A stretch of DNA of 64,000 nucleotides from a virus. This document shows, piece after piece, positions 2,561-64,000 of the stretch (position 1 is its first letter; each line of letters begins with the position of its first letter). Location of the stretch: the IMG/VR virus record IMGVR_UViG_3300045988_116799, positions 1-64,000 of that record; one strand, given 5' to 3'. The position numbers and the translations under genes are program-made. The notes below the pieces were generated by a model that ran no database searches, was not told where the DNA came from, and saw only the letters and a program-made list of their open reading frames with translations.

Positions 2561-2590
2561 AAATAAGGTGTGGACTAACACACCTTATTT
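2561..2590. terminator. bidirectional stem-loop between convergent genes
   Basis: aaataaggtgtg / cacaccttattt, 12-bp stem with 6-nt loop, A/T runs on both sides; overlaps the integrase stop. Confidence 0.6.
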
Positions 2591-3760: not shown

Positions 3761-3782
3761 AAAATGTATCTCCTTTATTTGT

Positions 3783-3805
3783 TTGCACGCTTTTTGCACG
3801 TTTTG
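3783..3805 (+). repeat. 23-nt direct repeat, copy 1 (TTGCACGcTTTTTGCACGTTTTG)
   Basis: Matches 3992..4014 at 22 of 23 positions; each copy contains two TGCACG units 11 nt apart. Confidence 0.6.
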
Positions 3806-3864
3806 AGATAAAGAATGTGCATAATTGCGTTGGTTTGACAATCGTTCATAAGTAAATACTATCG

Positions 3865-4801: not shown

Positions 4802-4981
4802 ATGGTAATAGGACAAAAATCCAAAGAGCGAGCAATCTGCGATAAGGTAGATGCTTATTTACGGCAAGGCTTTAAGAAATCAGAGGCTGTGCGGAAGACA
4901 AAGGATGATTTCATGTACGCAACCGAGGCTGCAATATATGGCATATTGCGTCGTAACAAAGAGAAAATCAATGACAAATGA
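4802..4981 (+). CDS. small protein (59 aa) in the Cro-like position
   Basis: ATG frame MVIGQKSKERAICDKVDAYLRQGFKKSEAVRKTKDDF...; first gene after the early promoter; its stop overlaps the next ATG. Confidence 0.4.
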   Translation: MVIGQKSKERAICDKVDAYLRQGFKKSEAVRKTKDDFMYATEAAIYGILRRNKEKINDK

Positions 4982-5168
4982 AAAACCCGATGTTGTACCT
5001 AAGGGGCGATATACCTTTAAGGAAGCAGCTCAAAAACTAGATATTAGTATCACAACAATATATAGATACGTATCGAGTAATATTATTAATTGTCTCACAC
5101 GTTCTAATGGGCAGCGTGTTATATTAGGTTCTGAGATTACACGTTTTTGGGGCGGTGAATACATCTAA
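4971..5168 (+). CDS. MerR/excisionase-type HTH protein
   Basis: MTNEKPDVVPKGRYTFKEAAQKLDISITTIYRYVSS. The internal Met of ORF 4851..5168 was chosen because the upstream part looks non-protein-like. Confidence 0.6.
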   Translation: MTNEKPDVVPKGRYTFKEAAQKLDISITTIYRYVSSNIINCLTRSNGQRVILGSEITRFWGGEYI

Positions 5169-5179
5169 ATCGCAGAAAA

Positions 5180-5548
5180 ATGGAAAAGGAGATACAACAA
5201 GCGATAGATTTGCTAATTGCGAATGGTTACGAGGTTACGCCTCCACAAACAGACATCGAAATAAATGAGGAGTTTGAGCGTTGGTGGAACATGTACAACA
5301 AAAAGCGTGGAAGAGAGAAATGTCTGAAACGATGGTTGTGCCTATCTAAAAAGGATAGGACGGCTTGTATAAATGCTACACCAGCTTATGTTCGTTCTAT
5401 CACGGTCAAGCGATATCAAAAAGACCCGTTTACGTACTTGAACCAACGTGGATGGGAAGACGAAATAATAGATGAATATGAAGAATCTGCAAACCGTACA
5501 GCTATCGAATTCGCAACGAGAGCAGCAAACATCTTTAACTCTAAGTAG
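5180..5548 (+). CDS. hypothetical protein
   Basis: ORF track, ATG start, protein-like composition. Confidence 0.6.
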   Translation: MEKEIQQAIDLLIANGYEVTPPQTDIEINEEFERWWNMYNKKRGREKCLKRWLCLSKKDRTACINATPAYVRSITVKRYQKDPFTYLNQRGWEDEIIDEYEESANRTAIEFATRAANIFNSK

Positions 5549-6137
5549 AAATCTTAGTAGAATTCTGTCTAAATACCCATTGATTAGTCAACGGGAGAAC
5601 ACAATACCTTCTTTGTACGAAGCCGTTACAGCGAGCCATTGGGATTTGTATTCAATCGACAAGGAACTTAACGACAAAGTAACAGTTCAGTGGATAAAAG
5701 GACAGCTTATAGATGTCTTAAGATTTTGTGGTGCTTTCGATGATGTTGAGGACTTCCAAATAATAGTTACTGCGAAACAGATTCGTAGCGATTATTACTA
5801 TCTGACGTTGCCAGAGCTTACGTTCTTCTTTGAGAAATTTATTAAAGGAAAATTTGGCAAGTTGTACGCAGGAAAAAAGGTCAATTGTCAGATATTCTTA
5901 CAAGCAATAAGCAATTTTGAAAATGAAGTAATAAACAAAAGAGCCAAGGTGCAAGAGGAATATGAACAACAAAGGAAACAACGTGAGAAAGAAACCGTTC
6001 GAAATGGTAAAACAGGTATTGACGGATGGCGTGAATATTGCCAAACTCACGGTATAAAAGGTCAGCCTTTACCGATGCAAGATTTCCTCAGAGAAATGAA
6101 AAAGAAGAGTTTAATGTCAAAAATGTTACAACAATGA
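5472..6137 (+). CDS. hypothetical protein (start uncertain)
   Basis: ORF track. The first ~25 codons overlap the previous gene and look like out-of-frame sequence; an in-frame TTG at 5580 is an alternative start. Confidence 0.55.
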   Translation: MNMKNLQTVQLSNSQREQQTSLTLSRNLSRILSKYPLISQRENTIPSLYEAVTASHWDLYSIDKELNDKVTVQWIKGQLIDVLRFCGAFDDVEDFQIIVTAKQIRSDYYYLTLPELTFFFEKFIKGKFGKLYAGKKVNCQIFLQAISNFENEVINKRAKVQEEYEQQRKQREKETVRNGKTGIDGWREYCQTHGIKGQPLPMQDFLREMKKKSLMSKMLQQ

Positions 6138-8062
6138 AAATTGAACTAAAAACAATGACCCTCCAAAACTTTAAAAAAGTACGGAGTAAAACGATTGATT
6201 TTTCGCACAATGTAATTATTAGTGGCGGAAACGAAGTAGGCAAAACTACAATATACGATGCCTATCTGTGGTGTCTATTCGGTGTGACAAGTCGCCCTGA
6301 TACGACTGTGCAAACATTGGATGCGAACAACAATGTAGCACGTAAATTAGTAACATCTGTAACGCTTGTTATTAATTACAATGACGAGCGAGACATTAAA
6401 ATAGAACGTCGCTTGACAGAACGCTATAAAGCCGAGAATACTGTAGAAGAAAAGTTTCTTGGCACAACACAGGCTCGTCTTGTTGATGATGTTCCGTATT
6501 CCGTTACGGCTTTCAAGGAAAAACTGAACTCGTTATGTAACTATGACGATTGGTTCTTACTTTCTAATATCAATTTGTTTTGGGCATATAAGGTTGACGA
6601 ACGCAGAAAAATACTTATGTCTTTAGCTGGTGAAATCAACGAAGCGGAAATAATGAATGATTATCCGGCTGTGTACAATGCTGTAATGGTAGAAAAGAAA
6701 GATTTGTCGGAACTACTTATACAACAGAAGTCAACACGAAAGAAGGCTAATGACGAACTGCAAACAATACCAGCTAAAGTACAAGCACAAGATGCATTGA
6801 AGACGAATGAAGATTTTAATGCCATTGAAATCGAAATAAAAGACGTTGATGCACAAATAGTTTCTGTTGACGCTGCTCTACAAGGAATTGTAACAAATAC
6901 TCCTGAACAGCAGAAGTTTGAAGAAAAATTATCTCTTGAAACAAGTAATTATAACAAAATTCGTGAGGAGTGGCAAAAAGAACATTTTAATAAAGTAAAT
7001 GATGCGTTTAAGGATGTTACTGACGCATCTGATACTTTGCAAAAAACAAGAAAGTCACAAAAAGAGCATTCTGATGCTTATGTGCAAAACAAGACAAAAG
7101 TGGCGGAATTGACAGTGGAGTTTAATAAGTTAATGCAACAATGGAAAAATGTTAACGAAAAGGAATTTAACTTTACCCAAACAGATGTATGTCCCGTTTG
7201 TGGTCGTCCTTATACGGACGCAATGAAAGAACAAGAATATGAAAATGCCGTTAATGAGTTCAATACTCACAAGGCAAGTCAATTGTCGGATATTCAGAAT
7301 AAAGCGGCAGAAAGGAACGAACAGCTAACGGTGCTCAAGGGACTTGTAAATACTTACGAACAAGTAACATCCGTAAGTGACAAGCAGACTCTGAAAACAA
7401 ACGAAGAAGCGTATGATACCCTTGTCAAAAAGCGTTCCGAGATACAATCAGAAACTTGGGAATCAAGTAATGAAAAAGCAAAGGCAGATGCGTCACTGCA
7501 AGCTTTTATGAAAACCAAGCCTGTAATCGCTACAAATACAACACAAGAAGAAAATAAACTCAAGAAGAAAGAGCTTACAAAAAAACGCGATGGTTTGATA
7601 AAACGTTTGTCTGCTCGTGATACTAACGAACGTATAGAGAAAGAGAAAACAAAACTCGACAAACGTTCTCGAGAACTTGCTCAAATAGTGGCGGATTGTA
7701 ACGAAATAATCCGCCAGATAAAAGAATACAAAAAGGCTAAGATAACAGTCGTTGAGAGCAAGGTTAATTCTCTTTTCTCTCTTATTCGTTGGAAATTCTA
7801 CGAACAGAACATAACGAATGATGACGAAAAAGACGTATGTACAGCGGTCGGATTAAATGGTGTTGATTACAACAATACTAACGATGGAACCGTTATTAAT
7901 ATGGGCATAGATATTATTAACGGCATCAGCAAAGCGAAAGATATGTACGTACCTCTTTTCGTAGACCGCAAAGAATCTGTAGAACACGCATTGCCGTCAA
8001 CGCAACAGACTATTTATCTACAATGCATATATAACGAACCTTTTAAAGTAGAAACAATTTAA
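6134..8062 (+). CDS. AAA/SMC-like ATPase (SbcC/Rad50-like)
   Basis: Walker A GGNEVGKTT near Met (MKIELKTMTLQNFKK); long coiled-coil centre with CPVCGRPY (CxxC hook-like); ATGA overlap with the upstream gene. Confidence 0.8.
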   Translation: MKIELKTMTLQNFKKVRSKTIDFSHNVIISGGNEVGKTTIYDAYLWCLFGVTSRPDTTVQTLDANNNVARKLVTSVTLVINYNDERDIKIERRLTERYKAENTVEEKFLGTTQARLVDDVPYSVTAFKEKLNSLCNYDDWFLLSNINLFWAYKVDERRKILMSLAGEINEAEIMNDYPAVYNAVMVEKKDLSELLIQQKSTRKKANDELQTIPAKVQAQDALKTNEDFNAIEIEIKDVDAQIVSVDAALQGIVTNTPEQQKFEEKLSLETSNYNKIREEWQKEHFNKVNDAFKDVTDASDTLQKTRKSQKEHSDAYVQNKTKVAELTVEFNKLMQQWKNVNEKEFNFTQTDVCPVCGRPYTDAMKEQEYENAVNEFNTHKASQLSDIQNKAAERNEQLTVLKGLVNTYEQVTSVSDKQTLKTNEEAYDTLVKKRSEIQSETWESSNEKAKADASLQAFMKTKPVIATNTTQEENKLKKKELTKKRDGLIKRLSARDTNERIEKEKTKLDKRSRELAQIVADCNEIIRQIKEYKKAKITVVESKVNSLFSLIRWKFYEQNITNDDEKDVCTAVGLNGVDYNNTNDGTVINMGIDIINGISKAKDMYVPLFVDRKESVEHALPSTQQTIYLQCIYNEPFKVETI

Positions 8063-17836: not shown

Positions 17837-19222
17837 TCAGCATTCGATATACTCCATCTGATTAGTCGAGCCTTCAAAGATATATCCGCACTCGTCCACA
17901 ATCCTCACGTCCTCCAACGGCAGCAAGGTCTTCTTGCCATATTCCTTCTCTGCTTCCACCATCCACGCCACGATACCCATCATGCCACCATGCACCTCTC
18001 TGGCTATTGTCTTGCCCGTCAGCTCACCATCAGCAGTCACCTCCGGCATACCGATAAGCATCTTTATCCAATTAGGTTCGCCCGTTTTCTCGCTCTTGCG
18101 TATCTCGTAGTCGAAGACAGTGAACGCCTGTCCGCTACGTGCCAACTCCAGTGGCTTTATATTCGGAGCGTCCATCTTGCGGTCTATGCGTATCTTCTTT
18201 GTCAGTTCTCGTAGCTTCATATCTTTCTCAATTTTCACCATCTCTCCGAATCCGTCAGTATGACGCATCAGTCCGAAGTAGCTGCCCCACGAATTATCGT
18301 TATTGCACATTCTCGCTCTCAATAGCGTGTCTTTGCGTATAAGGCAATAGCCCTTGTTCGAGTCCGTCACGCTCTTGTCGTTGTTGCGTATCACCCTATA
18401 ACCGCAGAAGTCAATCCCTCGCTTGTCGTTGATGTCGGTAATCCTTGTATCGCCACGCTTCGCCCTCATCTTCAGCTCATACCACCAGTACTGCCTTATC
18501 CTCCACTTCATCCGTTGCGCTTCCTCCCTTGTTCGGCAAGCCACCATGCAATTATCTGCATAGCACAATCGCCATTCAGTGTTTCGGCACAGCCACTCAT
18601 GGAATCTCAGCATCAGTATATGGTGAGCAAGCGGACTCGTCGGTGTGCCTACAGGCAGTTGCCCGTCAACAAAGCACAACTCCACGGCAAAGTCTATCAG
18701 CCACTTGTCACCAATAAGGTATTTCAGCTCCTTGCGCAGCACGCTCGGCTTCACGTGCATATAGCATTTTCGTTGATCGGCAGTCACTACCCAGTCCATT
18801 TCGCGCAGATCGTAAAACAGGTGCTTCACTCTTGGAAGAACATAGTTGCTTTTCAGCTCCTTGTGCTTTGCCGACGGAGTAATACCGCACCCTTCCTTGC
18901 AGTTAAGCGACACCAACGGGTCGCGTCTGCGGTATATCGGCTCCAACTTGTTCTTCAGCAGATGTTCATACACTAAAGTTCTGAACGTAGGCGCGTCGAT
19001 ATGCCTCACCTTCTTGTTGTTGTTCACCTTGGTCAGCTTCCAGTACTTGATGTCCTCATGCCAGCTTCCATCTTTGAGATGTTGTTCAATACTTGCGCAT
19101 AGCCCTTTTACATCCTTCAATGCCTCCGCCACCTCTGGGCGTTTCTTTCTGCCCTTAGCGGCACTCTCCACTGCTCTGAGGTAGTCGTCAGCAACGAAGG
19201 GTATGTAGTTGGGTCTATGCAC
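17837..19222 (-). CDS. DGR reverse transcriptase (divergent)
   Basis: RT motifs: AAKGRKKRPEV (N-terminus), VVTADQRKCY (motif A Asp), QLPVGTPTSPLAHHIL (motif B), CYADNCMV (motif C), GIDFCGYRV (motif E). GTG start. Lies 220 nt downstream of the TR. Confidence 0.9.
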   Translation of the reverse strand: MHRPNYIPFVADDYLRAVESAAKGRKKRPEVAEALKDVKGLCASIEQHLKDGSWHEDIKYWKLTKVNNNKKVRHIDAPTFRTLVYEHLLKNKLEPIYRRRDPLVSLNCKEGCGITPSAKHKELKSNYVLPRVKHLFYDLREMDWVVTADQRKCYMHVKPSVLRKELKYLIGDKWLIDFAVELCFVDGQLPVGTPTSPLAHHILMLRFHEWLCRNTEWRLCYADNCMVACRTREEAQRMKWRIRQYWWYELKMRAKRGDTRITDINDKRGIDFCGYRVIRNNDKSVTDSNKGYCLIRKDTLLRARMCNNDNSWGSYFGLMRHTDGFGEMVKIEKDMKLRELTKKIRIDRKMDAPNIKPLELARSGQAFTVFDYEIRKSEKTGEPNWIKMLIGMPEVTADGELTGKTIAREVHGGMMGIVAWMVEAEKEYGKKTLLPLEDVRIVDECGYIFEGSTNQMEYIEC

Positions 19223-19447
19223 GTTAATAATATGTTTTGTGCGGATTGCTCCGTTGTTAATAATCAGTGTCGGGCTAAAAAGTTGACGGAACTGTCTGCC
19301 CGTCAGAATGTCTCTCGGTCACGTTCGCCGCATCACGTACAGCCATCGTGCTACGCTCACATCCCTTGTCTTTGATATTTTCTGCTTCTCCTGAGCGAGA
19401 GTGGTGTTCCCGTGTTATTGGTTCTGCATCATTTATGATGCCCGACG

Positions 19448-19556
19448 TTGGGCAGAACCGCCATTATTCACGTTCGTATTAGCAGCCGAGTTGTTCGCAT
19501 TCAGATACCGAGGCGAACAATTCGCATTATTCGCATTGCCACGAAAGCGCACGGCT
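19448..19556 (-). repeat. DGR template repeat (TR)
   Basis: Aligns without gaps to 19814..19922 (offset 366). Every mismatch is a T on the + strand, which is an A in the coding sense. Confidence 0.9.
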
Positions 19557-19743
19557 CGGAGACACCAACCTCTTTAGCCATCATCTATATGGATAGCGTC
19601 ACCTCTCATGCAGGCTTCAGAGGCTTCGGCCCTCATGCCGAGCTTGTTCTGGTTTTGAGGAAATATTTTGTCTTGATTCATTTTATTCTATCTTTTAAAC
19701 CACTATAAAGTTACTAATTTTGTTTCTGATTGCCAAAGACATG

Positions 19744-19760
19744 GCGCGGTTGCACCGCGC
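19744..19760. promoter_or_regulatory. GC-rich hairpin downstream of the VR
   Basis: gcgcggt-tgc-accgcgc, 7-bp stem with 3-nt loop, 36 nt past the target-gene stop. Confidence 0.6.
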
Positions 19761-19800
19761 TGCACAACGTTGCACTAAGTTGCACCCGGCTGCGCCTATT
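19751..19800. repeat. five phased 10-nt units starting TGCAC (x4) and TGCGC
   Basis: TGCACCGCGC, TGCACAACGT, TGCACTAAGT, TGCACCCGGC, TGCGCCTATT, with an exact 10-nt period, running up to the target stop codon at 19796-19798. Confidence 0.8.
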
Positions 19801-22672
19801 GCACGATGCGACACTGGGCAGAACCGCCATAAAACACGTGCGGAATAGCAGCCGAGTGGTTCGCATTCAGAAACCGAGGCGAACAATACGCATGACTCGC
19901 ATCGCCACGAAAGCGCACGGCTATGCGCACGCGCTGGTTGAGAGTAGAACTCCAGTACGGAAATGCCCACGAGTAGAAGCATTGCCAACTGCTAAGATTT
20001 CCTCCATCGGCAATCTTGTATGGGATATACCCAAGTCTATTCTTACAGTAACCGTCCGACAAGATAGGAGAACCGAAAGTACCAATCTTACCATACGTAG
20101 ACTCGAAGCCGAATGTGCCAAGATTGTTCTTGCTGACACCAGACTCATTCACCCACTTTGACTGGTTGGGTTCAAGATAGAAATCTATGTAGTTCTTTAA
20201 CAGCTGCTCGGCATTGTAGCTGCCGTTGGTCTGCACCTTGTTAGTGCCCACCATCTCACAGCCGCCTCCCCAATAAGCAAAGACATCACCACTGACGTTC
20301 ATGCCGTGCATGAGACTCATTCTAAGACTTAGCTCAAGGTCGTATGTAGCAAGCGTGTTAGCGTCTTTGTAGCCCTTACAAGTGCCAATCTTCTTGCGAT
20401 ACACCTTACAGTTCATCACTCCGTCAGCCAAGCCCTTTACGCCCGTTATGTTCTTATAGCGGTACGTTACGCCATACGCCTCATACTCGGTGTTCTCAGC
20501 AATTCCGAACTCTGCTGCCCACGATGCTGCCATCTGGCTCTCCATGCACTGCTCCTTTGAACGATATAAATTCACGAACCACGAAAAGTTATTCTTTTCC
20601 AACTTTTCGTTATGTCCAAATGGTGTGCTATCGCCAAATCCGCGATATGTCCATTCTTCCGTACCCTGTTCCTTGCATCGCACACCGCCATTGTCGAGCC
20701 ATGTATTCTCCGAGTTGCAAGCGTCATTGCTTGATATGCCCGAACCAAACAAATTATTGTCGTGCAAGTACTTTGTTCCATACAGCAGCTCCATACACAG
20801 TATAAAGGTGTTGACACCATGAAAACCTCCTTCGGCAAAGGGCAGTGGCGCATTGGTGTCAGCATTGTTGGCACGAGCCTTTTGCATGTTGCTCACCTGA
20901 GTCATATCCGATATACGAGGATATGTTCTACCATCGTTTACGTACATCGAACACATATTCTCGCCTGCTCCGCTCGGTCCGTTGGTGGTGTTTGTGTCAC
21001 CCACGGCATAGACGTAGAAGAAGTTGCGTGTCTTGTTGCCTACCGTAGTAACAGGACAAGGAGACAGAGCCGTTCCAAGCAGAGGGTATCTGCCAGTATC
21101 AATGCCATCATAGCGCACCTGACGCTTGAAGATGCCCGTCAACACCTTACCGCTATCGCCAGTCTGACGGTCTACTGGATATAGGGTGTCGTAGCGACCG
21201 ATCATCACCGAATACTTTGTCTCTGTGGTCTCCCAAGGCAACAGCTGACGCACCTTGTTACCCTCTCCGTCGTACAAGTCTACCAAACCAAGCGAGTTGT
21301 ACACCTCTGTTGCATCGTAAGGATGTGCGCCAGCCTTATCTGTCACAACAACACCATTTTTCAGCGTCAATGGAGTTGTGTGCTCGGCATCGGTATAGAG
21401 TTGTACATCACACGCAGCACGCATCGCCTCCGTAATACCCACGGTAGGCGCAAACGCACCCGACACAAAGCGGAAGTGATTATTGTCCATCAACTGACCT
21501 ACAGGGTGTGTAGCCTCGCCAGTGTTGTCGGTTTGGTCGATAAGGTACGGATGCCAATCGCCCAAGAACTCCTTGTTTCCCTTGCAGTTCTTGAAGTGAG
21601 GGTCGCCCGTCACCTCGTCGTTCTCGCCTACATAGTAATCCTTAACGTTCTCCTTCAGTTCGGCAATGTCAGCAGCGTTCTGTGCCACAGCCTCCTTAGT
21701 CTCCTTCATGTCCACTACAAGCTGATTCACCTTCTCGCCCTCACCGACTTTCACACTCTTGCTTTCACCCTCGCGATTGGTAACAGTCAGCAATCCGTCG
21801 TCGGCAAGAGTGGCATTGACGTTCTCGGCTGCTCTCACCGCATCCACTGTCGAGGCCGCACCCTTGTTGGCAGCATCAGCAGCAGCGTTGGCAGTGTCAG
21901 CAGCCGACTGTGCAGACATCACAGCCTGCTGGCTGGCATCAGCACGCTCCTGCTCAGCCGATACTCGCAGCTTCTCGTTAGCCATACGTCGCGCCTCCGC
22001 TTCCGCTCTCAGCTTCTCGTCGTTGCCTCGTGTGTTCTCAGCCTCCGTGCGGTTCGTCTCGTTGCTCGCACGCTGCGTCTCAGCCTCCGTGCGCTGAGTT
22101 TCAGCCTCTGCACGCTCATGCTCAGCCTTCACGCGCTCCTGCTCATTAGCTGTTGCCGTATTGTTAATAGCCACAGCCTTATCCACCTCCGCCTTAGCCT
22201 TACGCAGCGTGTCGGTAAGCTGTAGGTTGAGAGCTTCGCCCTGCTCAGCAGCCTCCTGCGCACGACTCGCCTGAGCCTGTGCCGATGCCGATGCCGAAGT
22301 CGCAGCCGTAGCCGCTGCATCCACCTTGTCCAAAGCAGCCTGTAGCCCAGCCGTAGCTGTAGTCACGCTCTCCGCAGCCTTAGCCGCTTCCGCTGCCTTG
22401 TCGTTAGCAGTTTTAGCAGCAGCGTTGGCAGCCGTAGCAGCCTCCTGCGCACTCTGAGCACCGTCGTGAGCGCTCTTAGCGTCCACGAGCAGGCTCCACC
22501 ACTCGTCCTCACCCACAGGCTCGTGCCCGATGTTGCCGTCCGCCTTGCTCAGATAGGTGTTGCCGCCGTGCGTCACAAGCTGTAGCTTACAGTAAGTCAC
22601 ACTCGCGTCGTATGCCCCTTTAGGGTGCATGCCGACACTACCCATGTCAATGTACTTCTTTTCCATATTCAC
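19796..22672 (-). CDS. tail fibre / receptor-binding protein, DGR target
   Basis: 958 aa; Ala/Glu-rich coiled coil with AEAETQRTEAETQR repeats; large C-terminal globular part ending in the VR (…RFRGDASHAYCSPRFLNANHSAAIPHVFYGGSAQCRIVQ). Confidence 0.85.
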   Translation of the reverse strand: MNMEKKYIDMGSVGMHPKGAYDASVTYCKLQLVTHGGNTYLSKADGNIGHEPVGEDEWWSLLVDAKSAHDGAQSAQEAATAANAAAKTANDKAAEAAKAAESVTTATAGLQAALDKVDAAATAATSASASAQAQASRAQEAAEQGEALNLQLTDTLRKAKAEVDKAVAINNTATANEQERVKAEHERAEAETQRTEAETQRASNETNRTEAENTRGNDEKLRAEAEARRMANEKLRVSAEQERADASQQAVMSAQSAADTANAAADAANKGAASTVDAVRAAENVNATLADDGLLTVTNREGESKSVKVGEGEKVNQLVVDMKETKEAVAQNAADIAELKENVKDYYVGENDEVTGDPHFKNCKGNKEFLGDWHPYLIDQTDNTGEATHPVGQLMDNNHFRFVSGAFAPTVGITEAMRAACDVQLYTDAEHTTPLTLKNGVVVTDKAGAHPYDATEVYNSLGLVDLYDGEGNKVRQLLPWETTETKYSVMIGRYDTLYPVDRQTGDSGKVLTGIFKRQVRYDGIDTGRYPLLGTALSPCPVTTVGNKTRNFFYVYAVGDTNTTNGPSGAGENMCSMYVNDGRTYPRISDMTQVSNMQKARANNADTNAPLPFAEGGFHGVNTFILCMELLYGTKYLHDNNLFGSGISSNDACNSENTWLDNGGVRCKEQGTEEWTYRGFGDSTPFGHNEKLEKNNFSWFVNLYRSKEQCMESQMAASWAAEFGIAENTEYEAYGVTYRYKNITGVKGLADGVMNCKVYRKKIGTCKGYKDANTLATYDLELSLRMSLMHGMNVSGDVFAYWGGGCEMVGTNKVQTNGSYNAEQLLKNYIDFYLEPNQSKWVNESGVSKNNLGTFGFESTYGKIGTFGSPILSDGYCKNRLGYIPYKIADGGNLSSWQCFYSWAFPYWSSTLNQRVRIAVRFRGDASHAYCSPRFLNANHSAAIPHVFYGGSAQCRIVQ
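19814..19922 (-). repeat. DGR variable repeat (VR)
   Basis: Encodes the last ~36 residues of the 958-aa protein and differs from the TR only at TR adenines. Confidence 0.9.
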
Positions 22673-56750: not shown

Positions 56751-58178
56751 ATGAACTTATTTTCAAACAATCCCGATTTTTACCCTACACCAAATGAGGT
56801 TATAGAGCAAATGATGTTAGGGGAAGATTATGTAGGCAAGACCGTATTAGAGCCTTCTGCTGGTAGCGGCAATATTGTCAAATGGCTAAAACTAAATGGC
56901 AGTTGTAATGTCGTTGCTTGTGAGAATGACCTTACTCTACGAAATTTGCTCGGCAACGTTTGCCCTCTTATTGGCGATGATTTTCTCAAGCTAACAGCTG
57001 AACAAGTTAGCTATGTTGACCTTATAGTAATGAATCCGCCATTCAGCCATGGGGCGGAGCATATTATGCACGCTTGGGAGATAGCTCCGTCCGGATGCAC
57101 AATAATTGCCTTGTGTAACAGCACAAATGTCAATGCTACTTGTTATAGAGAGTACCGTAAATTGCAAGAGGTAGTCGAGCTGTATGGCAGTTCCTAATTT
57201 TTGGGAGACGTATTCAGCACGTCTGAGCGTAAAACAAATGTAAATGTGTCGCTTGTGAAGCTCTATAAACAAGCAGATGGTGAAGATGAATTTTCAGGTT
57301 ACTTTTTCTCGCAAGAGGATGAAGATGCCGTCAACCAGAACACCAAAGAAGGTCTGATGCCATATAATGTTGTGCGTGACTTGGTTAATCGCTATATTTC
57401 TGCTGTTAAACTTTTTGATAGCGTAATGGAAGTGTCAAATCAGATTAATGAAATAGCAAAGGTAGAAAAATTCAGCTTGCCTATATATTTCACTGCCGTC
57501 AACGCAGAAGACCGTTCTACAACAATCACAAGAGCGCAGTACAAAAAAGAGTTGCAAAAATACTACTGGAGGGTTATTTTCAGAAAGTTAAACATGGAGA
57601 AGTTTGCAACTTCTAAATTGCATCAACAGATTAACCGTTTTGTTGAGAAACAAAGTAATGTCCCGTTCACTATGAAGAACGTGTATAGCGTGCTTAATAT
57701 GGTCATACAGACTACTGGGCAGCGTATGAGAACAGCTTTATCTGAAGCATTCGACCTTATATGTTCCTTGTCGGCAGAAAACAGCACAGCTGGTGAGACA
57801 TGGAAGACAAATGCGAACTACATGGTTAACAGAAAATTCATCGTGTCTTGGATTACTGAATACGACACACGCTGGCCGAATCCTTTTGTTAGGCTAAAAA
57901 TAGGAGGTAATAAAGACAGAATTGAAGATGTGTGCAAAGCATTATGTTTTCTAACCGGTACAGATTACAACAACATGGAAAGCCTAAGCTCCTTTGTGGG
58001 AGAAAATCAATTAGCATGGGGAGGTTGGTTTGATTGGGGATTTTTCCGTTGTAGAGCGTACAAAAAGGGAATTATGCACTTTGAGTTTAAAGACGAAAAA
58101 GTGTGGATGATGTTCAACCAAGAAGTAGCCAAAGAACGAGGCTGGAGCTTACCTAAAAAAACAAACAAAAACAAATAA
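56751..58178 (+). pseudogene. N6-adenine-type DNA methyltransferase reading frame with one in-frame TAA (57195..57197)
   Basis: LEPSAGSG (motif I) and NPPF (motif IV) lie in 56751..57197. The ORF 57201..58178 is in the same frame, separated only by TAA and one codon. Confidence 0.6.
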
Positions 58179-58893: not shown

Positions 58894-59017
58894 CAATTTG
58901 GAGTTTAACGTAATATCTCGTTAGAGATACAACAATGTGGTACAAAGGTAGCTTTTTTATTTGGTCAGACAAAACATAAAATGTAAATTTGCATATTATT
59001 AACTAAAACAAATAAGC

Positions 59018-59302
59018 ATGACAGCGGAAGACATCTTGAAATATTGTCATTTCTATAAAGGTGAGGTGCTAATGCCTGATTCTTTAGAAGAAACAAATGA
59101 AGGTCAGCTATGGCTGGCTGAAAAAACAGTATGCGAGGAATTCGTAAATGACATTCATGTTGACACAGCACAAAAAGACGTTGCTTCTATTGTTGCTGCC
59201 TATGTTGGGAAATGGAATCCTTATGAATTGTCGGATGTTATGAACACGTACCTTACAAAGGTTCCAGAGGTTGAAACCTTCATAAGGCAAGTGTATTTAT
59301 AG
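59018..59302 (+). CDS. hypothetical protein
   Basis: ORF track; its 3' end overlaps the stop region of the convergent MuF gene by 6 nt. Confidence 0.55.
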   Translation: MTAEDILKYCHFYKGEVLMPDSLEETNEGQLWLAEKTVCEEFVNDIHVDTAQKDVASIVAAYVGKWNPYELSDVMNTYLTKVPEVETFIRQVYL

Positions 59303-62300
59303 TTCAAATAAGGCGTTTCCTTTGATATAATAAATGGATGCGCCTTTCTTTTTAAATTCCTTGGCAATCTTTAAAATTTTATCGTGAGAACCATCTAAAA
59401 TATCGTATGGATAAGTTATGGATTCAATACAATCAATTGTAAGCTGCCCGTGGTATTGTAGTTCTAGATACGAAGATATATGTTCTTTTTTAAATTCTAC
59501 GAGGTTTGTTGTTTGTATGTCTATTGATGTTGGTGTATTATAAAAATCATCAAACGAGCACGCTTTGGGGTCGCTAACGAGAGACGGCTGATATCTAACC
59601 CCTAAAGAATCTCCTGCCGTCCACGTTGCGACAACTTTGTCTTTCTTAAAACGGACTTCCACGTTACCATAACTTCTTGCTGTGTTGTTTTGCATTGAGC
59701 GCAGTATATTGTGGTCAAGAAGGTTTCCGTATTTCTCATATTCTTTTCTGTCTAATTGCTGAACTGCAAGGTCTTTTCGCGGAAGGCCAAACATCTTATG
59801 GGCGGCACTTAAACGTGAATGTGTAGGACTAATTTTTCCTGTTGTGGACGTAGAACCTAAATAACCTCCGGATGAGCCAGTCTCGAAAGTGTTCATAAAT
59901 TTTGAATTTAAGACCTTTTCGAGTATGGAATCTTTTATATTCATTCCTAAATCATGCTCACTGAACACTTTTTGCATCAGTAATTCTATCTCATTCTTAT
60001 GCGTTTTTGCTGTGACACCATAATAACGGCTGTTCTTCTCGTATTCGCTTATTGCATCTTCAAGATATTCAAGAGTCTTTGGAAATTTCGTACCAAGGCG
60101 TTTTTTCAAGTCTTCTATTGTTTCGTGATTAACTGCTGTTTCTTTTAATAGCTTTGGCGATTTCAATTTGTTTTTTAATAGTTGCTGATATTTTCTATTA
60201 ATCTCCTGCGCTTTGCTTTTTGCCAAATCCAAGTCAACATTTCTCCGTGTCAGTATATGATTTATCTCTGATGCCAGTTCTTTGATTTTTCTACTTTTTG
60301 ATAGAGTAGCATATGCGAGTGCATCGCTGACACTGTCGGCAACGGCTTTAATGTCAATCTTTCTCTCTACTATACGTAATTCTTTCTTATACGCATCTTG
60401 AGCAACTTTCCATGTATCGTATTTTTTATGTTCTTCAACCCATTTAATCTCAGATTCCAGAAAGCGTTTCCTTGGAAGTAATTCAACGCTTTCTCTTGCC
60501 AGTCTTGCTTCAATAGCTTTGTTAATTGCAATAGCTTCTGACATTGAGTAATTGCGAGCGACAAGGATAGGATTTTCAAGGCGTGACAGAGATAAAATCT
60601 TTTTCCCTTGTTCTTTCAATGCTTTGGCTTCTTCATAAATATTTACATAATCTCTTGCTTCAAGAGCTGTCTTTAATGCCGATGTGTCCACATCTTTAAT
60701 GCCATTCATATAGCGTAAGACGCTTTCGCCATAATGAACGTAAGCTCTTTCTGTTGCAAGTCGTCTTTGTCGTTGTTCGGCTCTTCTTTTGATTGATTCT
60801 GCGTCTCGCTTTGCGTGTCGTGCCTTAGCAATCTCTTGTATGGCATCACGGCGTGACATTGCGTCAGCACCCATTTGTTTGCGCTGTGTTGCATCCAAAA
60901 ACTTCACCCAATAACTTTTATTGTTTGCCAAGTGCCACGCCAACTTGTCCCGTTTATAAGCGTCCACGATTTTGTTTGCATTATCCTCAATGTACCGTTT
61001 ATATTGGTCGGGCATATCTTTAATACGGTTAGGAGATACGTAATTGGACATATCTTCTCCGTTGAACAGCCGTTTGTAGAATTGCTTGCGTTCTTCGCCA
61101 CTTATCATTATAGGGTCACTGGTACACATGCAGTTTGAGCCCCAAAAGCATTTGCCGTCTTTCTGTATATACATGATGTGATTGTTCTCAAGTGTAACGT
61201 CGTACACAAAGCCGATGTATTCAACTTTCTCCTTGTTAAATACAGTGGCGGTTGCTGAATCGCATTCACTTATTCTGTAACAGTCATATCGCTGCTTTAT
61301 AACTGTACCATCTTTTTTGACAGTATTTTTAGGTGACATTATTCTATATGACGGTCGATGTCCTACTTTTAACAATAGCAAACCTATTTCAGCTGCCATT
61401 TGAGGAGAAGATGTAAAATACATTCTTTCTCCATGATTTGGAGTACATACATGACCTCTGTTGCCCATAAAAGGACGTGGCTTCTTGATATGTCCGTCGC
61501 ACACAATAAAAGCATCAAGAAATATTTGGATTTGTCTCTTTGATGCATTTAAAATTTCTTGTGGTATATATTTATAATGTGCAGTTCCGTATTTTAAAAG
61601 CTCTTGACCAAAAGCACGGTGATATAAAACAATGGTGCTTTTATAAACGTGTGGCGTAAAACCCATCTTCTTGATACAAGTTTGCATACGTTTCCAAGCA
61701 GGCTGTCCTTTTTCTTGCGACAAAACAATACCGTAGTCATGTTGCATACTACCGTCTGCAAGGTAATACCCCATAAATTCACAATACACATCAAAAGGTA
61801 TATTTTTGTCGCCAAACATAATGTTCGTGCGGTCTTTGGCGGTATTGACAGCGGAACGATAGAAAGCCCCCATACTTGGCTTGTATTCCGTAGCGTTGCA
61901 TTTTTTTATTTCGTGAGCACCGCTTTTGCTGATATACACCATTTGATGTTCTGGAGTAACAAGACATTCCAATGAACGGTTAAAAAAGTGTATAAGTTCT
62001 CCATTGTAAGGGTATTTTTGTACTCCTACAATATTTGTTTCTTCTATTTCACGTGTCTGTGGATTTAAAGAATATACAACATCCTGAGTCGTAACATCTT
62101 TAAATTCTTTCCATCCTTTTGTAGTCAGAACCTGAGTACCTTCGGCATAACATTGAGGGTGCCAGCCATTCCACACAAAGCCTTTAGGATAGTACCCTTC
62201 AAGCTCGTCGCAAATGTCAGCATCTTCGTCTGGGTCGTGCTGTGGAGATACGTGTATATGCTGCCCTATGACGAAAGGCTCGTTTGCCCAACGCTCGTTC

Positions 62301-63055
62301 CTTGCTGTGTGGTATGCTGCATTGATTTCGGTACGAGCCACACGTAAAGCATTCTTTCTTGCGGAGCGATATACGCCCAGCCCTACATGTTCGAGCGGTT
62401 CTTCTACAAAGCGTACACGTCCGTCAATAATGCGCTTCCTGCGCCAAGTGACAATATCTTTCTTCTGTCCGTTCTTTAACACTTTTACTGTGTGGTAACG
62501 ACGATACATCATATCCGGGTTATTCAAATATTGTCGTATTCTTCTACCCACTTCCTCTGCGGATTCACCCTTTCCCAGTCCGTCGGCTATCACGTTAGAC
62601 ATCGCCATCTCGAACTCTGCTTTTGTTTGCTGACAGTAGTTCCATACGGACCGCGCGAGGTTCAAGCCTATCTTAGAATTGAGTCTATTGGCTATGAACG
62701 TCGCAGCAGCCGTTTTTCTTGCGGTTTCTAATGCTTTGTCTGTTAGCACAGAGAATTGCCCTATTGTATCATTGTCGTGCGCATACGCAAGAGAAACGCC
62801 GCTTGTTATGCCGCTTTTGTAGCATAACATGCTATTTTGGAAATAGTCGTTAAATATGTCTTCAAGTCGAGCTTTAAGCAAAGGAAAATTGTCAAAATTG
62901 AAAAGAGCGTCATTTTCGAGCACGTCTTCGCTATAGCCAAGAGCGAGCAGCTTCCTGACATAACTTCCGTACAACATGCCAAGTCGGCGGTTGTATTCGG
63001 CGAATAGCCTGTTTAAATCTTCCTTTCGCTTTTTAGCTGTAAGTTTTTCTGCCAT
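59297..63055 (-). CDS. MuF/SPP1 gp7-family head morphogenesis protein with an intein and a long C-terminal extension
   Basis: Directly downstream of the portal gene. The residue 1-301 region ends in WHPQ and resumes CMCT after the intein, restoring the family HPxCxC motif. About 600 further residues follow. Confidence 0.8.
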   Translation of the reverse strand: MAEKLTAKKRKEDLNRLFAEYNRRLGMLYGSYVRKLLALGYSEDVLENDALFNFDNFPLLKARLEDIFNDYFQNSMLCYKSGITSGVSLAYAHDNDTIGQFSVLTDKALETARKTAAATFIANRLNSKIGLNLARSVWNYCQQTKAEFEMAMSNVIADGLGKGESAEEVGRRIRQYLNNPDMMYRRYHTVKVLKNGQKKDIVTWRRKRIIDGRVRFVEEPLEHVGLGVYRSARKNALRVARTEINAAYHTARNERWANEPFVIGQHIHVSPQHDPDEDADICDELEGYYPKGFVWNGWHPQCYAEGTQVLTTKGWKEFKDVTTQDVVYSLNPQTREIEETNIVGVQKYPYNGELIHFFNRSLECLVTPEHQMVYISKSGAHEIKKCNATEYKPSMGAFYRSAVNTAKDRTNIMFGDKNIPFDVYCEFMGYYLADGSMQHDYGIVLSQEKGQPAWKRMQTCIKKMGFTPHVYKSTIVLYHRAFGQELLKYGTAHYKYIPQEILNASKRQIQIFLDAFIVCDGHIKKPRPFMGNRGHVCTPNHGERMYFTSSPQMAAEIGLLLLKVGHRPSYRIMSPKNTVKKDGTVIKQRYDCYRISECDSATATVFNKEKVEYIGFVYDVTLENNHIMYIQKDGKCFWGSNCMCTSDPIMISGEERKQFYKRLFNGEDMSNYVSPNRIKDMPDQYKRYIEDNANKIVDAYKRDKLAWHLANNKSYWVKFLDATQRKQMGADAMSRRDAIQEIAKARHAKRDAESIKRRAEQRQRRLATERAYVHYGESVLRYMNGIKDVDTSALKTALEARDYVNIYEEAKALKEQGKKILSLSRLENPILVARNYSMSEAIAINKAIEARLARESVELLPRKRFLESEIKWVEEHKKYDTWKVAQDAYKKELRIVERKIDIKAVADSVSDALAYATLSKSRKIKELASEINHILTRRNVDLDLAKSKAQEINRKYQQLLKNKLKSPKLLKETAVNHETIEDLKKRLGTKFPKTLEYLEDAISEYEKNSRYYGVTAKTHKNEIELLMQKVFSEHDLGMNIKDSILEKVLNSKFMNTFETGSSGGYLGSTSTTGKISPTHSRLSAAHKMFGLPRKDLAVQQLDRKEYEKYGNLLDHNILRSMQNNTARSYGNVEVRFKKDKVVATWTAGDSLGVRYQPSLVSDPKACSFDDFYNTPTSIDIQTTNLVEFKKEHISSYLELQYHGQLTIDCIESITYPYDILDGSHDKILKIAKEFKKKGASIYYIKGNALFEL
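61133..62152 (-). mobile_element. 340-aa intein with a LAGLIDADG homing endonuclease
   Basis: Block A CYAEGTQVLT, block B LVTPEHQ (TxxH), LAGLIDADG motifs GYYLADGS and LDAFIVCDGH, C-terminal VYDVTLENNHIMYI...FWGSN followed by a +1 Cys. Confidence 0.8.
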
Positions 63056-63057
63056 AC

Positions 63058-64000
63058 TTATTCTTCATTCGTCACAGACTGCGATGCGTTCGCCGACTCA
63101 CCAACACCCATAAACGCCGCCTGTTGCATCATTTCACTTTCCTGCTCTTCTTTCATTTCTTTCTCCACGCTGTCGGCATCATCGTTGAGCGGATTAAGCT
63201 CAATAGAACGACGTTGTGAAGTAGAAGGCTTACCTCCATTGCTCTGTGTGATAAGTTGTAGCAGTTCAACATCATTCTTGGGTATGTAAGGTTCAAACAG
63301 GGGCTCAAAATCAATGTCCTCCGCTACGCTTGCATCAATACCCTTAACGTATATGCCTGCATTGCAAATACCGTTAGCAACGATGTTGCTTCTGCGTGTG
63401 AACATTTCTCCGTACATTTCAGTTTTGTTGCCGACTTTCATAAATGGGTCGGTAAACATAAGACGTATGGCAGCACCGCTTGTGTTGTTGCCTAATGTCT
63501 TCATGTTTTCAAATGAAATGTCGGGAGTTTGCGTGAACGAGAATATGATATTAAACAGGTAAGCAATCTCGCCTTTCACACTCTCTGGAGAGTGGTCCCA
63601 TGACAGCACTCTCATTTCCGTTTCTTTTCCACCTTGGAATACCGAACCTTGCTCGCCTTTTTCGGCAAAACCTTCCAGACGACCTTGAATAAAGTACTTT
63701 GGCGTGCCAAAATAATCGTTCGTGTCGCCCCAGTTCGATATACATTCTTCTACACGGTCGCACGCCCACTGAACATCTGCCCATTCCGATTTGTATTGGT
63801 AGTAATAAACTACTGGTATCTTCGTGAAGCCATGTGCCTTTGCTTCGGTGAGTGTCCATCCCGAGCCATTATTGATGTACTTATACACGAATCTATCTGT
63901 GTAGACATCAAAATGCAGCTCTTGTGTTCCAAGCTCGTCAAACGTGTAGTATTCACGTCCGAAACCATCCATCCGATGCCAATCATTAAAATGCGGATAT
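63058..64000 (-). CDS. portal protein (5' end outside window)
   Basis: The frame stays open upstream of the listed Met to the window edge. Its position before MuF and a general SPP1 gp6-like look support the call. Confidence 0.7.
   Translation of the reverse strand, partial: YPHFNDWHRMDGFGREYYTFDELGTQELHFDVYTDRFVYKYINNGSGWTLTEAKAHGFTKIPVVYYYQYKSEWADVQWACDRVEECISNWGDTNDYFGTPKYFIQGRLEGFAEKGEQGSVFQGGKETEMRVLSWDHSPESVKGEIAYLFNIIFSFTQTPDISFENMKTLGNNTSGAAIRLMFTDPFMKVGNKTEMYGEMFTRRSNIVANGICNAGIYVKGIDASVAEDIDFEPLFEPYIPKNDVELLQLITQSNGGKPSTSQRRSIELNPLNDDADSVEKEMKEEQESEMMQQAAFMGVGESANASQSVTNEE

What the first reader, a model, noticed from the sequence alone, without database searches (positions are those of the whole stretch)
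61133..62152. LAGLIDADG intein inserted in the conserved HPxCxC motif of the MuF head protein
Seen: residues 302-641 of the 1252-aa protein begin with CYAEGTQVLT (block A). They contain LVTPEHQ (TxxH block B) and two LAGLIDADG-type motifs (FMGYYLADGSM, FLDAFIVCDGHI). They end ...VYDVTLENNHIMYIQKDGKCFWGSN, followed by Cys. Removing them joins ...VWNGWHPQ to CMCTSDP, giving HPQCMC. That matches the HPNCRC-type motif I recall at the end of the Phage_Mu_F domain. The penultimate intein residue is Ser rather than the usual His. Phage inteins usually sit in terminase, polymerase, helicase or ribonucleotide reductase genes, so a MuF host protein is unusual as far as I know.
Basis: partly seen in the sequence, partly recalled or inferred. 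Interest (0 to 1): 0.68.

Follow-up and report, generated by a model that had tools for sequence, protein, structure and literature searches.

The report
Mobile intein in phage MuF protein
A 340-residue self-splicing, self-copying protein insert (an intein with a homing endonuclease) sits exactly inside a conserved motif of a gut Bacteroidales phage head/toxin-delivery protein; it is real and seems to have moved recently, but it is a new example of a known kind of element.

Summary
Window 61133-62152 (minus strand) encodes residues 302-641 of a 1252-aa protein, CYAEGTQVLT...CFWGSN, followed by Cys.

It is an intein by sequence, by predicted fold and by comparison with homologues:
- Hundreds of homologues at 85-93% identity lack exactly these 1020 nt and read WHPQ|CMCTSDP.
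- The confident model (pLDDT 91.9) matches endonuclease-containing inteins best (TliVMA, PI-SceI, PI-PfuI).
- Splicing and endonuclease catalytic residues are conserved across 105 relatives at this site.
- The penultimate Ser is a family trait (Ser or Gly in 104 of 105).

The intein appears to have moved recently. Its DNA is 99.3% identical in a second phage whose flanking extein DNA is only 94% and 87% identical. It also occurs with three different C-terminal tails. A Prevotella assembly carries a 144-aa mini-intein at the same site.

The host protein is a divergent MuF-type head protein next to an SPP1-type portal. Homologues carry different C-terminal toxin domains.

The rarity claim does not hold. 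MuF inteins were reported in 2004 and in a 2025 preprint, at the same site in Gordonia phage Vivi2. At least 104 clusters (50% identity) in metagenomes carry this intein family there.

Verdict: new member of a known kind. Splicing and DNA cleavage are untested.

The parts
59297..63055 (-). Host gene: 1252-aa precursor of a MuF-type head-morphogenesis / minor capsid protein with a long C-terminal extension (912 aa after splicing)
   Evidence: ORF. The spliced extein hits phrog_16625 at 6.8e-84 and phrog_7625 'head morphogenesis' at 6.8e-37, each as a single stretch across the junction. hhalign to PF04233-positive MuF proteins gives 98.3%. The gene lies directly downstream of an SPP1-type portal gene. 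The identical protein is on ENA and Logan contigs.
62153..63055 (-). N-extein (residues 1-301), ending ...ICDELEGYYPKGFVWNGWHPQ
   Evidence: DNA is 96.2% identical to the intein-less contig L001.
61133..62152 (-). Intein, 340 aa (residues 302-641): Cys1 ... Ser339-Asn340
   Evidence: Exactly this 1020-nt block is absent from L001. GC is 37.5%, against 46.1% in the N-extein and 38.2% in the C-extein.
61853..62152 (-). N-terminal splicing (HINT) region, intein residues about 1-100. It includes block A (Cys1, codon 62150-62152) and block B LVTPEHQ (61943-61963; Thr66, His69).
   Evidence: PDB phmmer match to the AceL NrdHF intein over residues 4-98, E = 3.8e-8. This part is retained in the L017 mini-intein. 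T66 is conserved in 104 of 105 relatives and H69 in 105 of 105.
61226..61852 (-). LAGLIDADG homing-endonuclease domain, intein residues about 101-309. Motif 1 FMGYYLADGSM is at 61745-61777 (Asp133); motif 2 FLDAFIVCDGHI is at 61487-61522 (Asp219).
   Evidence: Foldseek hits to PI-SceI, PI-PfuI, TliVMA and I-Tsp061I. Pfam LAGLIDADG_3 E = 5.5e-4, below its cut-off. Acidic residues are conserved in 105 of 105 and 104 of 105 relatives. This is the part deleted in the L017 mini-intein.
61133..61225 (-). C-terminal splicing region, intein residues about 310-340: block F VYDVTLENNHIMY (Asp318, His325) and block G CFWGSN (Ser339, Asn340)
   Evidence: Mja KlbA intein C-block match. NCBIfam intein_Cterm 15.3 bits against a 15.6 cut-off.
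61130..61132 (-). Codon of Cys642, the +1 residue of the C-extein. It is the first Cys of the restored HPQ-C-M-C motif.
   Evidence: Cys is invariant at this column in host families A4 and A5.
59297..61129 (-). Rest of the C-extein: a conserved linker to about 60800, then a variable C-terminal region
   Evidence: Homology to L001 stops near 60800 and resumes at 59007. Homologues carry Gln_amidase, ATLF-like or ADP-ribosyltransferase tails. The window's own tail has no Pfam or PDB sequence match.
63058..64000 (-). 3' part of the upstream SPP1-type portal gene, cut by the window end (context, not part of the intein)
   Evidence: Pfam SPP1_portal E = 1.8e-27. Full-length 497-aa portal on L002.

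Best explanation
Window 61133-62152 (minus strand) encodes a class-1 intein with an in-frame double-motif LAGLIDADG homing endonuclease. It is inserted between Gln301 and the first Cys of the HPQ|CMC motif that ends the MuF domain of a temperate Bacteroidales siphophage head protein.

Inferred mechanism, which is standard class-1 chemistry:
1. The 1252-aa precursor is translated.
2. Cys1 makes an N-S acyl shift.
3. The +1 Cys642 attacks the thioester, giving a branched intermediate.
4. Asn340 cyclises and releases the intein. In this family that step works without a penultimate His.
5. An S-N shift yields a 912-aa MuF protein with HPQCMC restored.

The freed intein, through its endonuclease domain, would cut intein-less alleles at ...TGGCATCCTCAA|TGCATGTGTACC... 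during co-infection or in a lysogen. Repair from the intein-bearing copy would then insert the 1020 nt (homing).

Shown here: the identity of the element, its exact boundaries, the empty sites, conservation of the catalytic residues, and the signature of horizontal transfer.

Inferred only: that it splices, and that the endonuclease cuts.
For: Identity:
- PDB sequence hits to inteins.
- AlphaFold2 model with pLDDT 91.9, whose best Foldseek matches are endonuclease-containing inteins TliVMA, PhoVMA, PI-SceI and PI-PfuI, E = 7e-17 to 1e-10.

Clean insertion:
- 785 homologues of the spliced extein. The best 120 are 432-758 aa long, all too short to hold the intein, and 84-93% identical. The nine I read all show WH[PSA][QN]|CMC[TA]SDP uninterrupted.
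- At DNA level, L001 has ...CATCCTCAA|TGCATGTGT... with exactly the 1020 nt missing.

Functional constraint across 105 inteins at this site:
- Cys or Ser at position 1 in all 105
- Thr66 in 104, His69 in 105, Asn340 in 105
- LAGLIDADG acidic residues in 105 and 104
- uninterrupted ORFs in 11 Bacteroidales genome loci

Mobility:
- Intein DNA is 99.3% identical between the window and L004, against 94.4% (N-extein) and 87.1% (C-extein). The nearest flank mismatches lie 7 nt upstream and 22 nt downstream.
- P0141 has a 99.7% identical intein in an N-extein only 79.7% identical. P0142 has a 95.3% identical intein with another toxin tail.

Homing cycle: empty sites, full inteins and a 144-aa mini-intein lacking the endonuclease (L017) all occur in this protein family.
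Against: - There is no experimental evidence of splicing or DNA cleavage.
- The penultimate His that normally assists Asn cyclisation is Ser.
- Curated intein and LAGLIDADG models score below their cut-offs.
- MuF (SPP1 gp7) is reported as needed for efficient infection rather than strictly essential. Selection for splicing may therefore be weaker than in a terminase.
- The window and the two other contigs carrying the identical protein may come from one sample.
Confidence: 0.88

Rival explanations
1. It is a HINT-type autoproteolytic 'release' module that belongs to the polymorphic toxin. It sits between the MuF trafficking domain and the C-terminal effector and would cleave off the effector rather than splice.
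For: The position between the conserved MuF domain and variable C-terminal toxin domains is where release domains are expected in polymorphic toxins. I recall HINT domains being described in that role in PMC3482391, a paper listed that I did not read. Bacterial intein-like and Hedgehog HINT structures appear among the weaker Foldseek hits.
Against: Most close homologues, including toxin-bearing ones such as P0021 (Gln_amidase), lack the segment entirely, so it is not an integral part of the protein. It cuts inside the invariant HPxCxC motif, not in a linker. It has the full splicing set of Cys1, TxxH, Asn and +1 Cys, plus a homing endonuclease, which a release peptidase does not need. Its DNA is more conserved than its flanks, as expected for a mobile element. 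Ser in place of the penultimate His would weaken C-terminal cleavage, not strengthen it.
Confidence: 0.04
2. It is a splicing-dead or decaying intein: a tolerated in-frame insertion, or an inactivated MuF gene in a phage that can do without MuF.
For: The penultimate residue is Ser instead of His. Curated intein models score below threshold. MuF is not strictly essential in SPP1 (background cited in PMC5576092). Intein-bearing alleles are a small minority among close homologues.
Against: All splicing residues are intact here and across 105 diverged relatives. The ORF is uninterrupted here and in 11 genome loci. Between the window and L004 the intein differs at 7 nt, in 5 synonymous and 2 non-synonymous codons. 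A mini-intein that lost the endonuclease but kept both splicing regions is what selection for splicing predicts. Ser or Gly at the penultimate position is the family norm, in 104 of 105, not a lesion in this copy.
Confidence: 0.07
3. It is an assembly or annotation artefact, for example a chimeric contig joining an intein-bearing gene to a MuF gene.
For: The window comes from metagenomic-type data. One related contig (L004) shows ORF breaks in this gene.
Against: The identical 1252-aa protein is encoded on separate ENA and Logan assemblies. The same junctions occur in at least 104 clusters at 50% identity and in 11 genome loci, including a 395-kb contig of the isolate Prevotella vespertina A2879. 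The L004 break within the intein is a run of N from scaffolding; a second ORF break, in its C-terminal tail, was not examined.
Confidence: 0.01

Closest known systems
Actinobacteriophage 'minor capsid, MuF-like' inteins (bioRxiv 10.1101/2025.01.02.630785), e.g. Gordonia phage Vivi2 gp14, KU963250
   Same: The host protein family is the same (MuF / IPR006528). The insertion point is also the same, immediately before the Cys of the C-x-C that ends the MuF domain. Vivi2 reads APHEVIN|CFVADT...YIARN|CRCTML. The preprint also infers ongoing horizontal spread.
   Different: There is no detectable sequence similarity between the two inteins. The preprint says that minor-capsid inteins in actinobacteriophages carry only non-canonical endonucleases, either VSR-like or antisense LAGLIDADG. 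This one has a canonical in-frame double-motif LAGLIDADG domain. The host clade differs too: Bacteroidales rather than Actinobacteria.
Intein in protein F (Mu gp30) of the Mu-like prophage of Methylococcus capsulatus Bath (Ward et al. 2004, PMC517821)
   Same: It is an intein in a MuF head-assembly protein of a temperate phage.
   Different: That one is described as a degenerate mini-intein without an endonuclease, and as most similar to archaeal IF-2 inteins. I could not check its insertion site.
Endonuclease-containing class-1 inteins with solved structures: TliVMA and PhoVMA (7qsu, 7qss, 7qst), PI-SceI (1vde), PI-PfuI (1dq3)
   Same: The overall two-part architecture matches: a HINT splicing domain interrupted by a double-motif LAGLIDADG endonuclease. 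Foldseek E = 7e-17 to 1e-10, TM 0.50-0.60 normalised to the query.
   Different: Sequence identity is only 9-18%. The hosts are cellular (V-ATPase, ribonucleotide reductase). This intein is shorter (340 aa). I did not check the terminal residues of those inteins; this family ends in Ser/Gly-Asn.
Mycobacteriophage cluster C1 nucleotidyltransferase inteins and a Lak megaphage intein
   Same: These are the closest relatives among 50,697 deposited phage genomes: tblastn gives 23-25% identity, full length in Lak phage and EBPR siphovirus 2 and 86% of the query in the mycobacteriophages.
   Different: They have different host proteins and insertion sites. No deposited phage genome carried a member of this intein lineage at a MuF site at this sensitivity.
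MuF polymorphic toxins of temperate phages (Jamet et al. 2017, PMC5576092; Bxa-type ADP-ribosyltransferase, phrog_16625)
   Same: The host protein architecture matches: an N-terminal MuF domain next to the portal gene, with a variable C-terminal toxin domain in homologues.
   Different: That paper's text does not contain the words intein or Hint. The window protein's own C-terminal domain is unidentified.

Membership tests
Intein (class 1 protein-splicing element) | Nucleophile (Cys/Ser) as first residue | tested here: met
   Cys302 of the precursor is intein Cys1. Among 105 relatives it is Cys in 100 and Ser in 5.
Intein (class 1 protein-splicing element) | Block B Thr-x-x-His | tested here: met
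   LVTPEHQ, Thr66 and His69. Conserved in 104 of 105 and 105 of 105.
Intein (class 1 protein-splicing element) | C-terminal Asn followed by a Cys/Ser/Thr +1 residue | tested here: met
   ...WGSN|C. Asn is present in 105 of 105.
Intein (class 1 protein-splicing element) | Penultimate His (usual, not obligatory) | tested here: not met
   Ser339. Across the family it is Ser 75, Gly 29, His 1. From my own knowledge, not checked in a paper here, inteins without this His are known to splice, so this does not exclude membership.
Intein (class 1 protein-splicing element) | HINT fold | tested here: met
   Model with pLDDT 91.9. Foldseek matches endonuclease-containing inteins and mini-inteins; AceL NrdHF aligns at rmsd 1.4 A over 99 columns.
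Intein (class 1 protein-splicing element) | In-frame insertion absent from close homologues, whose removal restores a conserved motif | tested here: met
Intein (class 1 protein-splicing element) | Curated profile hits above threshold | tested here: inconclusive
   TIGR01445 16.9 bits against 24.5. TIGR01443 15.3 against 15.6. No Pfam intein model hit the window protein.
Intein (class 1 protein-splicing element) | Protein splicing actually occurs | not testable with these tools
   Needs expression and mass spectrometry.
Class 3 intein | Trp (B:12) - Cys (F:4) - Thr (G:5) triplet (positions recalled from my own knowledge) | tested here: not met
   By my block numbering B:12 is Met, F:4 is Asp318 and G:5 is Gly338. 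18 of 105 relatives do have Cys at F:4; I did not follow that up.
LAGLIDADG homing endonuclease (double-motif) | Two LAGLIDADG helices, each with a catalytic acidic residue | tested here: met
   FMGYYLADGS (Asp133) and FLDAFIVCDGH (Asp219) lie at the ends of helices 120-133 and 205-219 of the model. Conserved in 105 of 105 and 104 of 105.
LAGLIDADG homing endonuclease (double-motif) | Pfam LAGLIDADG model above gathering score | tested here: inconclusive
   PF14528 scores 20.6 bits against a 22.5 cut-off, E = 5.5e-4.
LAGLIDADG homing endonuclease (double-motif) | Cuts the intein-less allele; homing | not testable with these tools
   Indirect support only. The intein is 99.3% identical across exteins that are 94% and 87% identical, and it occurs in three toxin-tail backgrounds.
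MuF / SPP1 gp7 head-morphogenesis family (Pfam PF04233) | Match to the Pfam Phage_Mu_F model | tested here: not met
   Neither the precursor nor the spliced protein hits it, even at E <= 10. An annotated MuF-like protein, Gordonia phage Yikes gp13, also fails, so the model misses divergent members.
MuF / SPP1 gp7 head-morphogenesis family (Pfam PF04233) | Homology to bona fide PF04233 proteins by a more sensitive method | tested here: met
   hhalign of A4 against A5: probability 98.3%, E = 1.2e-14, with WHPxCxC aligned on HPNCRC. Five of the seven hosts tested, which make up five of the eight A5 sequences, pass the PF04233 gathering score after in-silico splicing. BLASTP to Yikes MuF-like protein 1e-9. 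PHROG 'head morphogenesis' 6.8e-37.
MuF / SPP1 gp7 head-morphogenesis family (Pfam PF04233) | Gene next to the portal gene in the head module | tested here: met
   The SPP1_portal gene ends 3 nt upstream.
MuF polymorphic toxin | Conserved MuF N-terminus with variable C-terminal toxin domains across close homologues | tested here: met
   Gln_amidase in P0021 (2e-14). ATLF-like domain in P0040 (weak). ADPrib_exo_Tox in Bacteroides phage Versailles, with an ADP-ribosylglycohydrolase gene nearby. The cassette boundary lies near 60800.
MuF polymorphic toxin | Recognisable toxin domain in this protein | tested here: inconclusive
   The C-terminal ~317 aa have no Pfam hit and the C-terminal ~367 aa no PDB sequence hit.

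The most novel reading that the evidence does not exclude
The intein could be more than a parasite. It splits a putative metal- or redox-sensitive Cys/His cluster (C-x16-H-P-x-C-x-C) at the boundary between the virion-targeting MuF domain and the delivered effector. Its +1 nucleophile is one of the cluster's cysteines. Splicing might therefore be conditional on redox state or zinc, and so time the maturation of a virion-packaged toxin or head protein. No evidence here bears on this either way.
Probability: 0.08. Interest if true: 0.7.

Novelty: new member of a known kind. Interest (0 to 1): 0.4.

Why it matters
This is a well-resolved natural example of the intein homing cycle in human-gut-type Bacteroidales phages. 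Empty sites, a full intein that looks recently transferred, and a mini-intein all occur in one protein family.

It shows that the HPNC|xC end of the MuF domain is a recurrent intein landing site, used by at least two unrelated intein lineages in different phyla.

It also shows that a large family is absent from the 50,697 deposited phage genomes I searched: at least 104 clusters at 50% identity among the best 148 hits.

In practice, gene callers and domain scans will mis-size MuF/toxin proteins unless the intein is removed. The family also offers class-1 inteins with a Ser/Gly-Asn C-terminus, and new LAGLIDADG specificities, for protein and genome engineering. Prevotella vespertina A2879 provides a cultured host for a relative about 52% identical.

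Tried and rejected
- Megablast of the gene against deposited phages found nothing.
- AlphaFold2 of the MuF N-terminal domain (alignment A2, 13 sequences) gave pLDDT 45.3. It was too poor for a fold search and I discarded it. MuF membership was tested by profile-profile comparison instead.
I repeated it with a tighter alignment, A3.
- I considered a natural split intein, because the L004 gene is called as several ORFs. The break within the intein is a scaffold gap of N with duplicated flanks; a second break, in the C-terminal tail, I did not examine. The L004 ORF at 2937-3275 lies upstream of where the gene alignment begins, so I took it as a separate gene.
- I considered that the intein carries the downstream toxin cassette along when it homes. 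The flanks diverge within 7 nt and 22 nt of the intein, and the same intein sits upstream of three different tails. It entered pre-existing alleles.
- Class 3 mechanism: rejected, as there is no Trp-Cys-Thr triplet.
- Literature searches for 'intein' with 'MuF' or 'MupF' gave nothing relevant. The precedents came from searches on 'head morphogenesis' and 'minor capsid protein'.
- I could not obtain the Methylococcus MuF intein sequence to compare insertion sites.
Full report
**1. The observation**

ORF 59297..63055 on the minus strand encodes 1252 aa. Residues 302-641 correspond exactly to window 61133-62152. They read CYAEGTQVLT...IQKDGKCFWGSN and are followed by Cys642. All the quoted motifs are present at intein positions 64-70 (LVTPEHQ), 126-136, 211-222, 316-328 and 335-340. 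Deleting the segment joins ...GWHPQ to CMCTSDP....

**2. Is it an intein?**

Curated domain models alone are only suggestive. LAGLIDADG_3 scores 20.6 bits against a 22.5 cut-off, intein_Nterm 16.9 against 24.5, and intein_Cterm 15.3 against 15.6.

Stronger evidence comes from three directions.

- *Solved structures by sequence.* The segment matches the AceL NrdHF intein (E = 3.8e-8, residues 4-98) and the Mja KlbA intein, the latter with both N- and C-terminal blocks. It also matches archaeal V-ATPase inteins weakly over the LAGLIDADG region.
- *Predicted fold.* An AlphaFold2 model built on 18 sequences is confident (pLDDT 91.9, pTM 0.89). Its best Foldseek matches in the PDB are all endonuclease-containing inteins: TliVMA, PhoVMA, PI-SceI and PI-PfuI, with E = 7e-17 to 1e-10. 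Mini-inteins and free LAGLIDADG enzymes follow.
- *Comparative test.* The spliced extein finds 785 homologues. The best 120 are 432-758 aa long, all too short to hold the intein, and 84-93% identical. The nine I read all show the junction uninterrupted, as WH[PSA][QN]|CMC[TA]SDP. On the contig that encodes one of them (L001), the DNA reads ...TGGCATCCTCAA|TGCATGTGTACC.... The window has exactly 1020 nt between these two halves.

**3. Is it under selection for function?**

An exhaustive HMMER search of 1.84 billion representative proteins gave 6478 hits, 340 of them at E <= 1e-30. Among the best 148, both junctions could be resolved in 124. Of those, 104 sit at the same H-x-x|C...N|C site.

I aligned these 104 plus the window intein, 105 in all:
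- position 1 is Cys in 100 and Ser in 5
- Thr66 is kept in 104, His69 in 105 and Asn340 in 105
- the two LAGLIDADG acidic residues are kept in 105 and 104
- block F Asp318 is kept in 87, with Cys in 18
- the penultimate residue is Ser in 75, Gly in 29 and His in 1

So the 'unusual' Ser is the family norm, not a defect of this copy. Eleven loci in Bacteroidales genomes all have uninterrupted ORFs with the same junctions. One of them is a 395-kb contig of the isolate Prevotella vespertina A2879.

**4. Is it mobile?**

A second contig, L004, carries the same intein. Its DNA is 99.3% identical over the intein (7 differences), but only 94.4% over the N-extein and 87.1% over the conserved part of the C-extein. 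The nearest flank mismatches lie 7 nt upstream and 22 nt downstream of the intein.

At protein level, P0141 has a 99.7% identical intein in an N-extein that is 79.7% identical, with a glutamine-deamidase-type tail. P0142 has a 95.3% identical intein with a metalloprotease-type tail. The window has a third, unidentified tail.

This is the expected signature of horizontal transfer by homing into diverged alleles. Intein GC is 37.5% against 46.1% in the N-extein, although the C-extein is 38.2%, so this is only weak support.

An uncultured Prevotella assembly (L017) has a 144-aa mini-intein at the same site. It keeps roughly residues 1-100 and 310-340 and lacks the endonuclease. Its host is a homologue whose C-terminus visibly resembles the window protein's; I did not quantify this. 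Empty, full and mini forms together are the three stages of the classical homing cycle.

An apparent split of the gene within the intein in L004 is a scaffold gap of N, not biology.

**5. The host protein**

The gene follows an SPP1-type portal gene directly (Pfam 1.8e-27). The window is a temperate siphophage genome, with an integrase, tape-measure protein, tail fibre and major head protein.

The spliced protein matches PHROG 'head morphogenesis' families, and phrog_16625 at 6.8e-84, in single stretches across the junction. It does not hit Pfam Phage_Mu_F, but neither does an annotated MuF-like protein of Gordonia phage Yikes.

Two tests settle membership of the MuF superfamily and the identity of the motif.
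- Distant hosts of the same intein family, spliced in silico, pass the PF04233 gathering score in 5 of 7 cases. Scores reach 64 bits, and the match ends at profile position 111 of 112, just past HPNCRC.
- A profile of the Bacteroidales-type hosts aligns to a profile of those hosts at hhalign probability 98.3% (E = 1.2e-14), with WHPxCxC placed on HPNCRC.

Close intein-less homologues carry different C-terminal toxin domains: Gln_amidase, an ATLF-like domain, and ADP-ribosyltransferase in Bacteroides phage Versailles, which has an ADP-ribosylglycohydrolase gene nearby. The host is therefore a MuF polymorphic-toxin-type protein. The window's own tail is unidentified.

**6. Mechanism**

The residue set fits a class-1 intein and not class 3, since there is no Trp-Cys-Thr triplet. 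The proposed steps are: a Cys1 thioester, trans-thioesterification to Cys+1, cyclisation of Asn340 without a penultimate His, and an S-N shift that restores HPQCMC. The endonuclease domain would cut the empty site and trigger gene conversion. The chemistry and the cleavage are inferred. Identity, boundaries, conservation and transfer are shown.

**7. Rivals**

- *A toxin-release HINT domain.* Contradicted by the many toxin-bearing homologues without the segment, by the position inside an invariant motif, by the endonuclease, and by the mobile-element signature.
- *A dead intein.* Contradicted by family-wide conservation and by the mini-intein, which kept both splicing regions.
- *An assembly artefact.* Excluded by independent assemblies and genomes.

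**8. Comparison with what is known**

Kelley et al. 2016 list no MuF host. But there are precedents.
- Ward et al. 2004 reported a mini-intein in Mu F (gp30) of a Methylococcus prophage.
- A 2025 preprint lists 'minor capsid, MuF-like (IPR006528)' inteins in actinobacteriophages, all with non-canonical endonucleases.

I checked one of the latter, Gordonia phage Vivi2 gp14. Its intein sits at the homologous point...APHEVIN|C...N|CRC..., yet shows no sequence similarity to the window's intein. The site is thus a hot spot used by unrelated inteins.

Among 50,697 deposited phage genomes, the nearest relatives of the window's intein are only 23-25% identical and sit in other proteins. This canonical-LAGLIDADG lineage at the MuF site therefore appears to be uncatalogued, although it is abundant in metagenomes.

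**9. Verdict**

This is a real, well-supported intein with a homing endonuclease, and it shows the sequence signature of recent horizontal transfer. It is a new member of a known kind.

Interest is moderate. It is a tidy natural system for intein dynamics in gut phages and a caution for annotating MuF toxins. It is not a new kind of element.

Noticed in passing
window 17837-22672 (minus strand): A diversity-generating retroelement. It has a reverse transcriptase ORF at 17837-19222 (phrog_1423, 6.7e-24), a 114-nt template repeat at 19443-19556, and an 88% identical variable repeat at 19809-19922, in the 3' end of the 958-aa ORF 19796-22672. 13 of the 14 mismatches fall at template adenines.
   Followed up: partly
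window 59008-60800, including ORF 59018-59302 (+): This is a swapped cassette. Homology to the intein-less contig L001 stops near 60800 and resumes at 59007 (97.7% identity beyond). The C-terminal domain of the MuF protein and the small convergent 94-aa ORF just downstream are therefore replaced together, as in a toxin plus immunity pair. Neither has a Pfam hit.
   Followed up: partly
L017 3095-6448 (uncultured Prevotella sp. MAG): A 144-aa mini-intein at the same WHPA|C...GSN|CMC site. The endonuclease domain is deleted. The host is a 1117-aa homologue whose C-terminus visibly resembles the window protein's, though I did not quantify that.
   Followed up: yes
relatives P0141-P0288 of the intein: 18 of 105 inteins at the MuF site have Cys instead of Asp at block F position 4, which is the class-3 branch nucleophile position. 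Five start with Ser. Twenty of the 124 resolved hits sit in other, unidentified host sites with Ser/Thr/Cys at +1. More distant relatives lie in GTP cyclohydrolase I (P0019) and RNA polymerase beta (P0020).
   Followed up: no
window 2585-3841 and 6038-8062: A tyrosine-type integrase (phrog_1, 1.4e-27) and an SbcC-like / recombinase-type protein. The element is a temperate phage or prophage. No tRNA genes were found in the window.
   Followed up: no
L004 about 4595-4611 (scaffold gap), and the gene calls at 4879-6081 and 6139-6468: The intein-bearing MuF gene is called as several ORFs. The break within the intein comes from a 10-N scaffold gap with duplicated flanks. Protein P0012 in the database is a fragment that starts inside the intein. 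A second break, in the C-terminal tail, was not examined.
   Followed up: yes
window 57201-58178 (+): The DUF4942 protein (Pfam 3e-27) is 325 aa here (listed from a TTG start). It is called as 310 aa on L002 and 475 aa on L001 and L004. The start or length of this neighbour varies between relatives.
   Followed up: no
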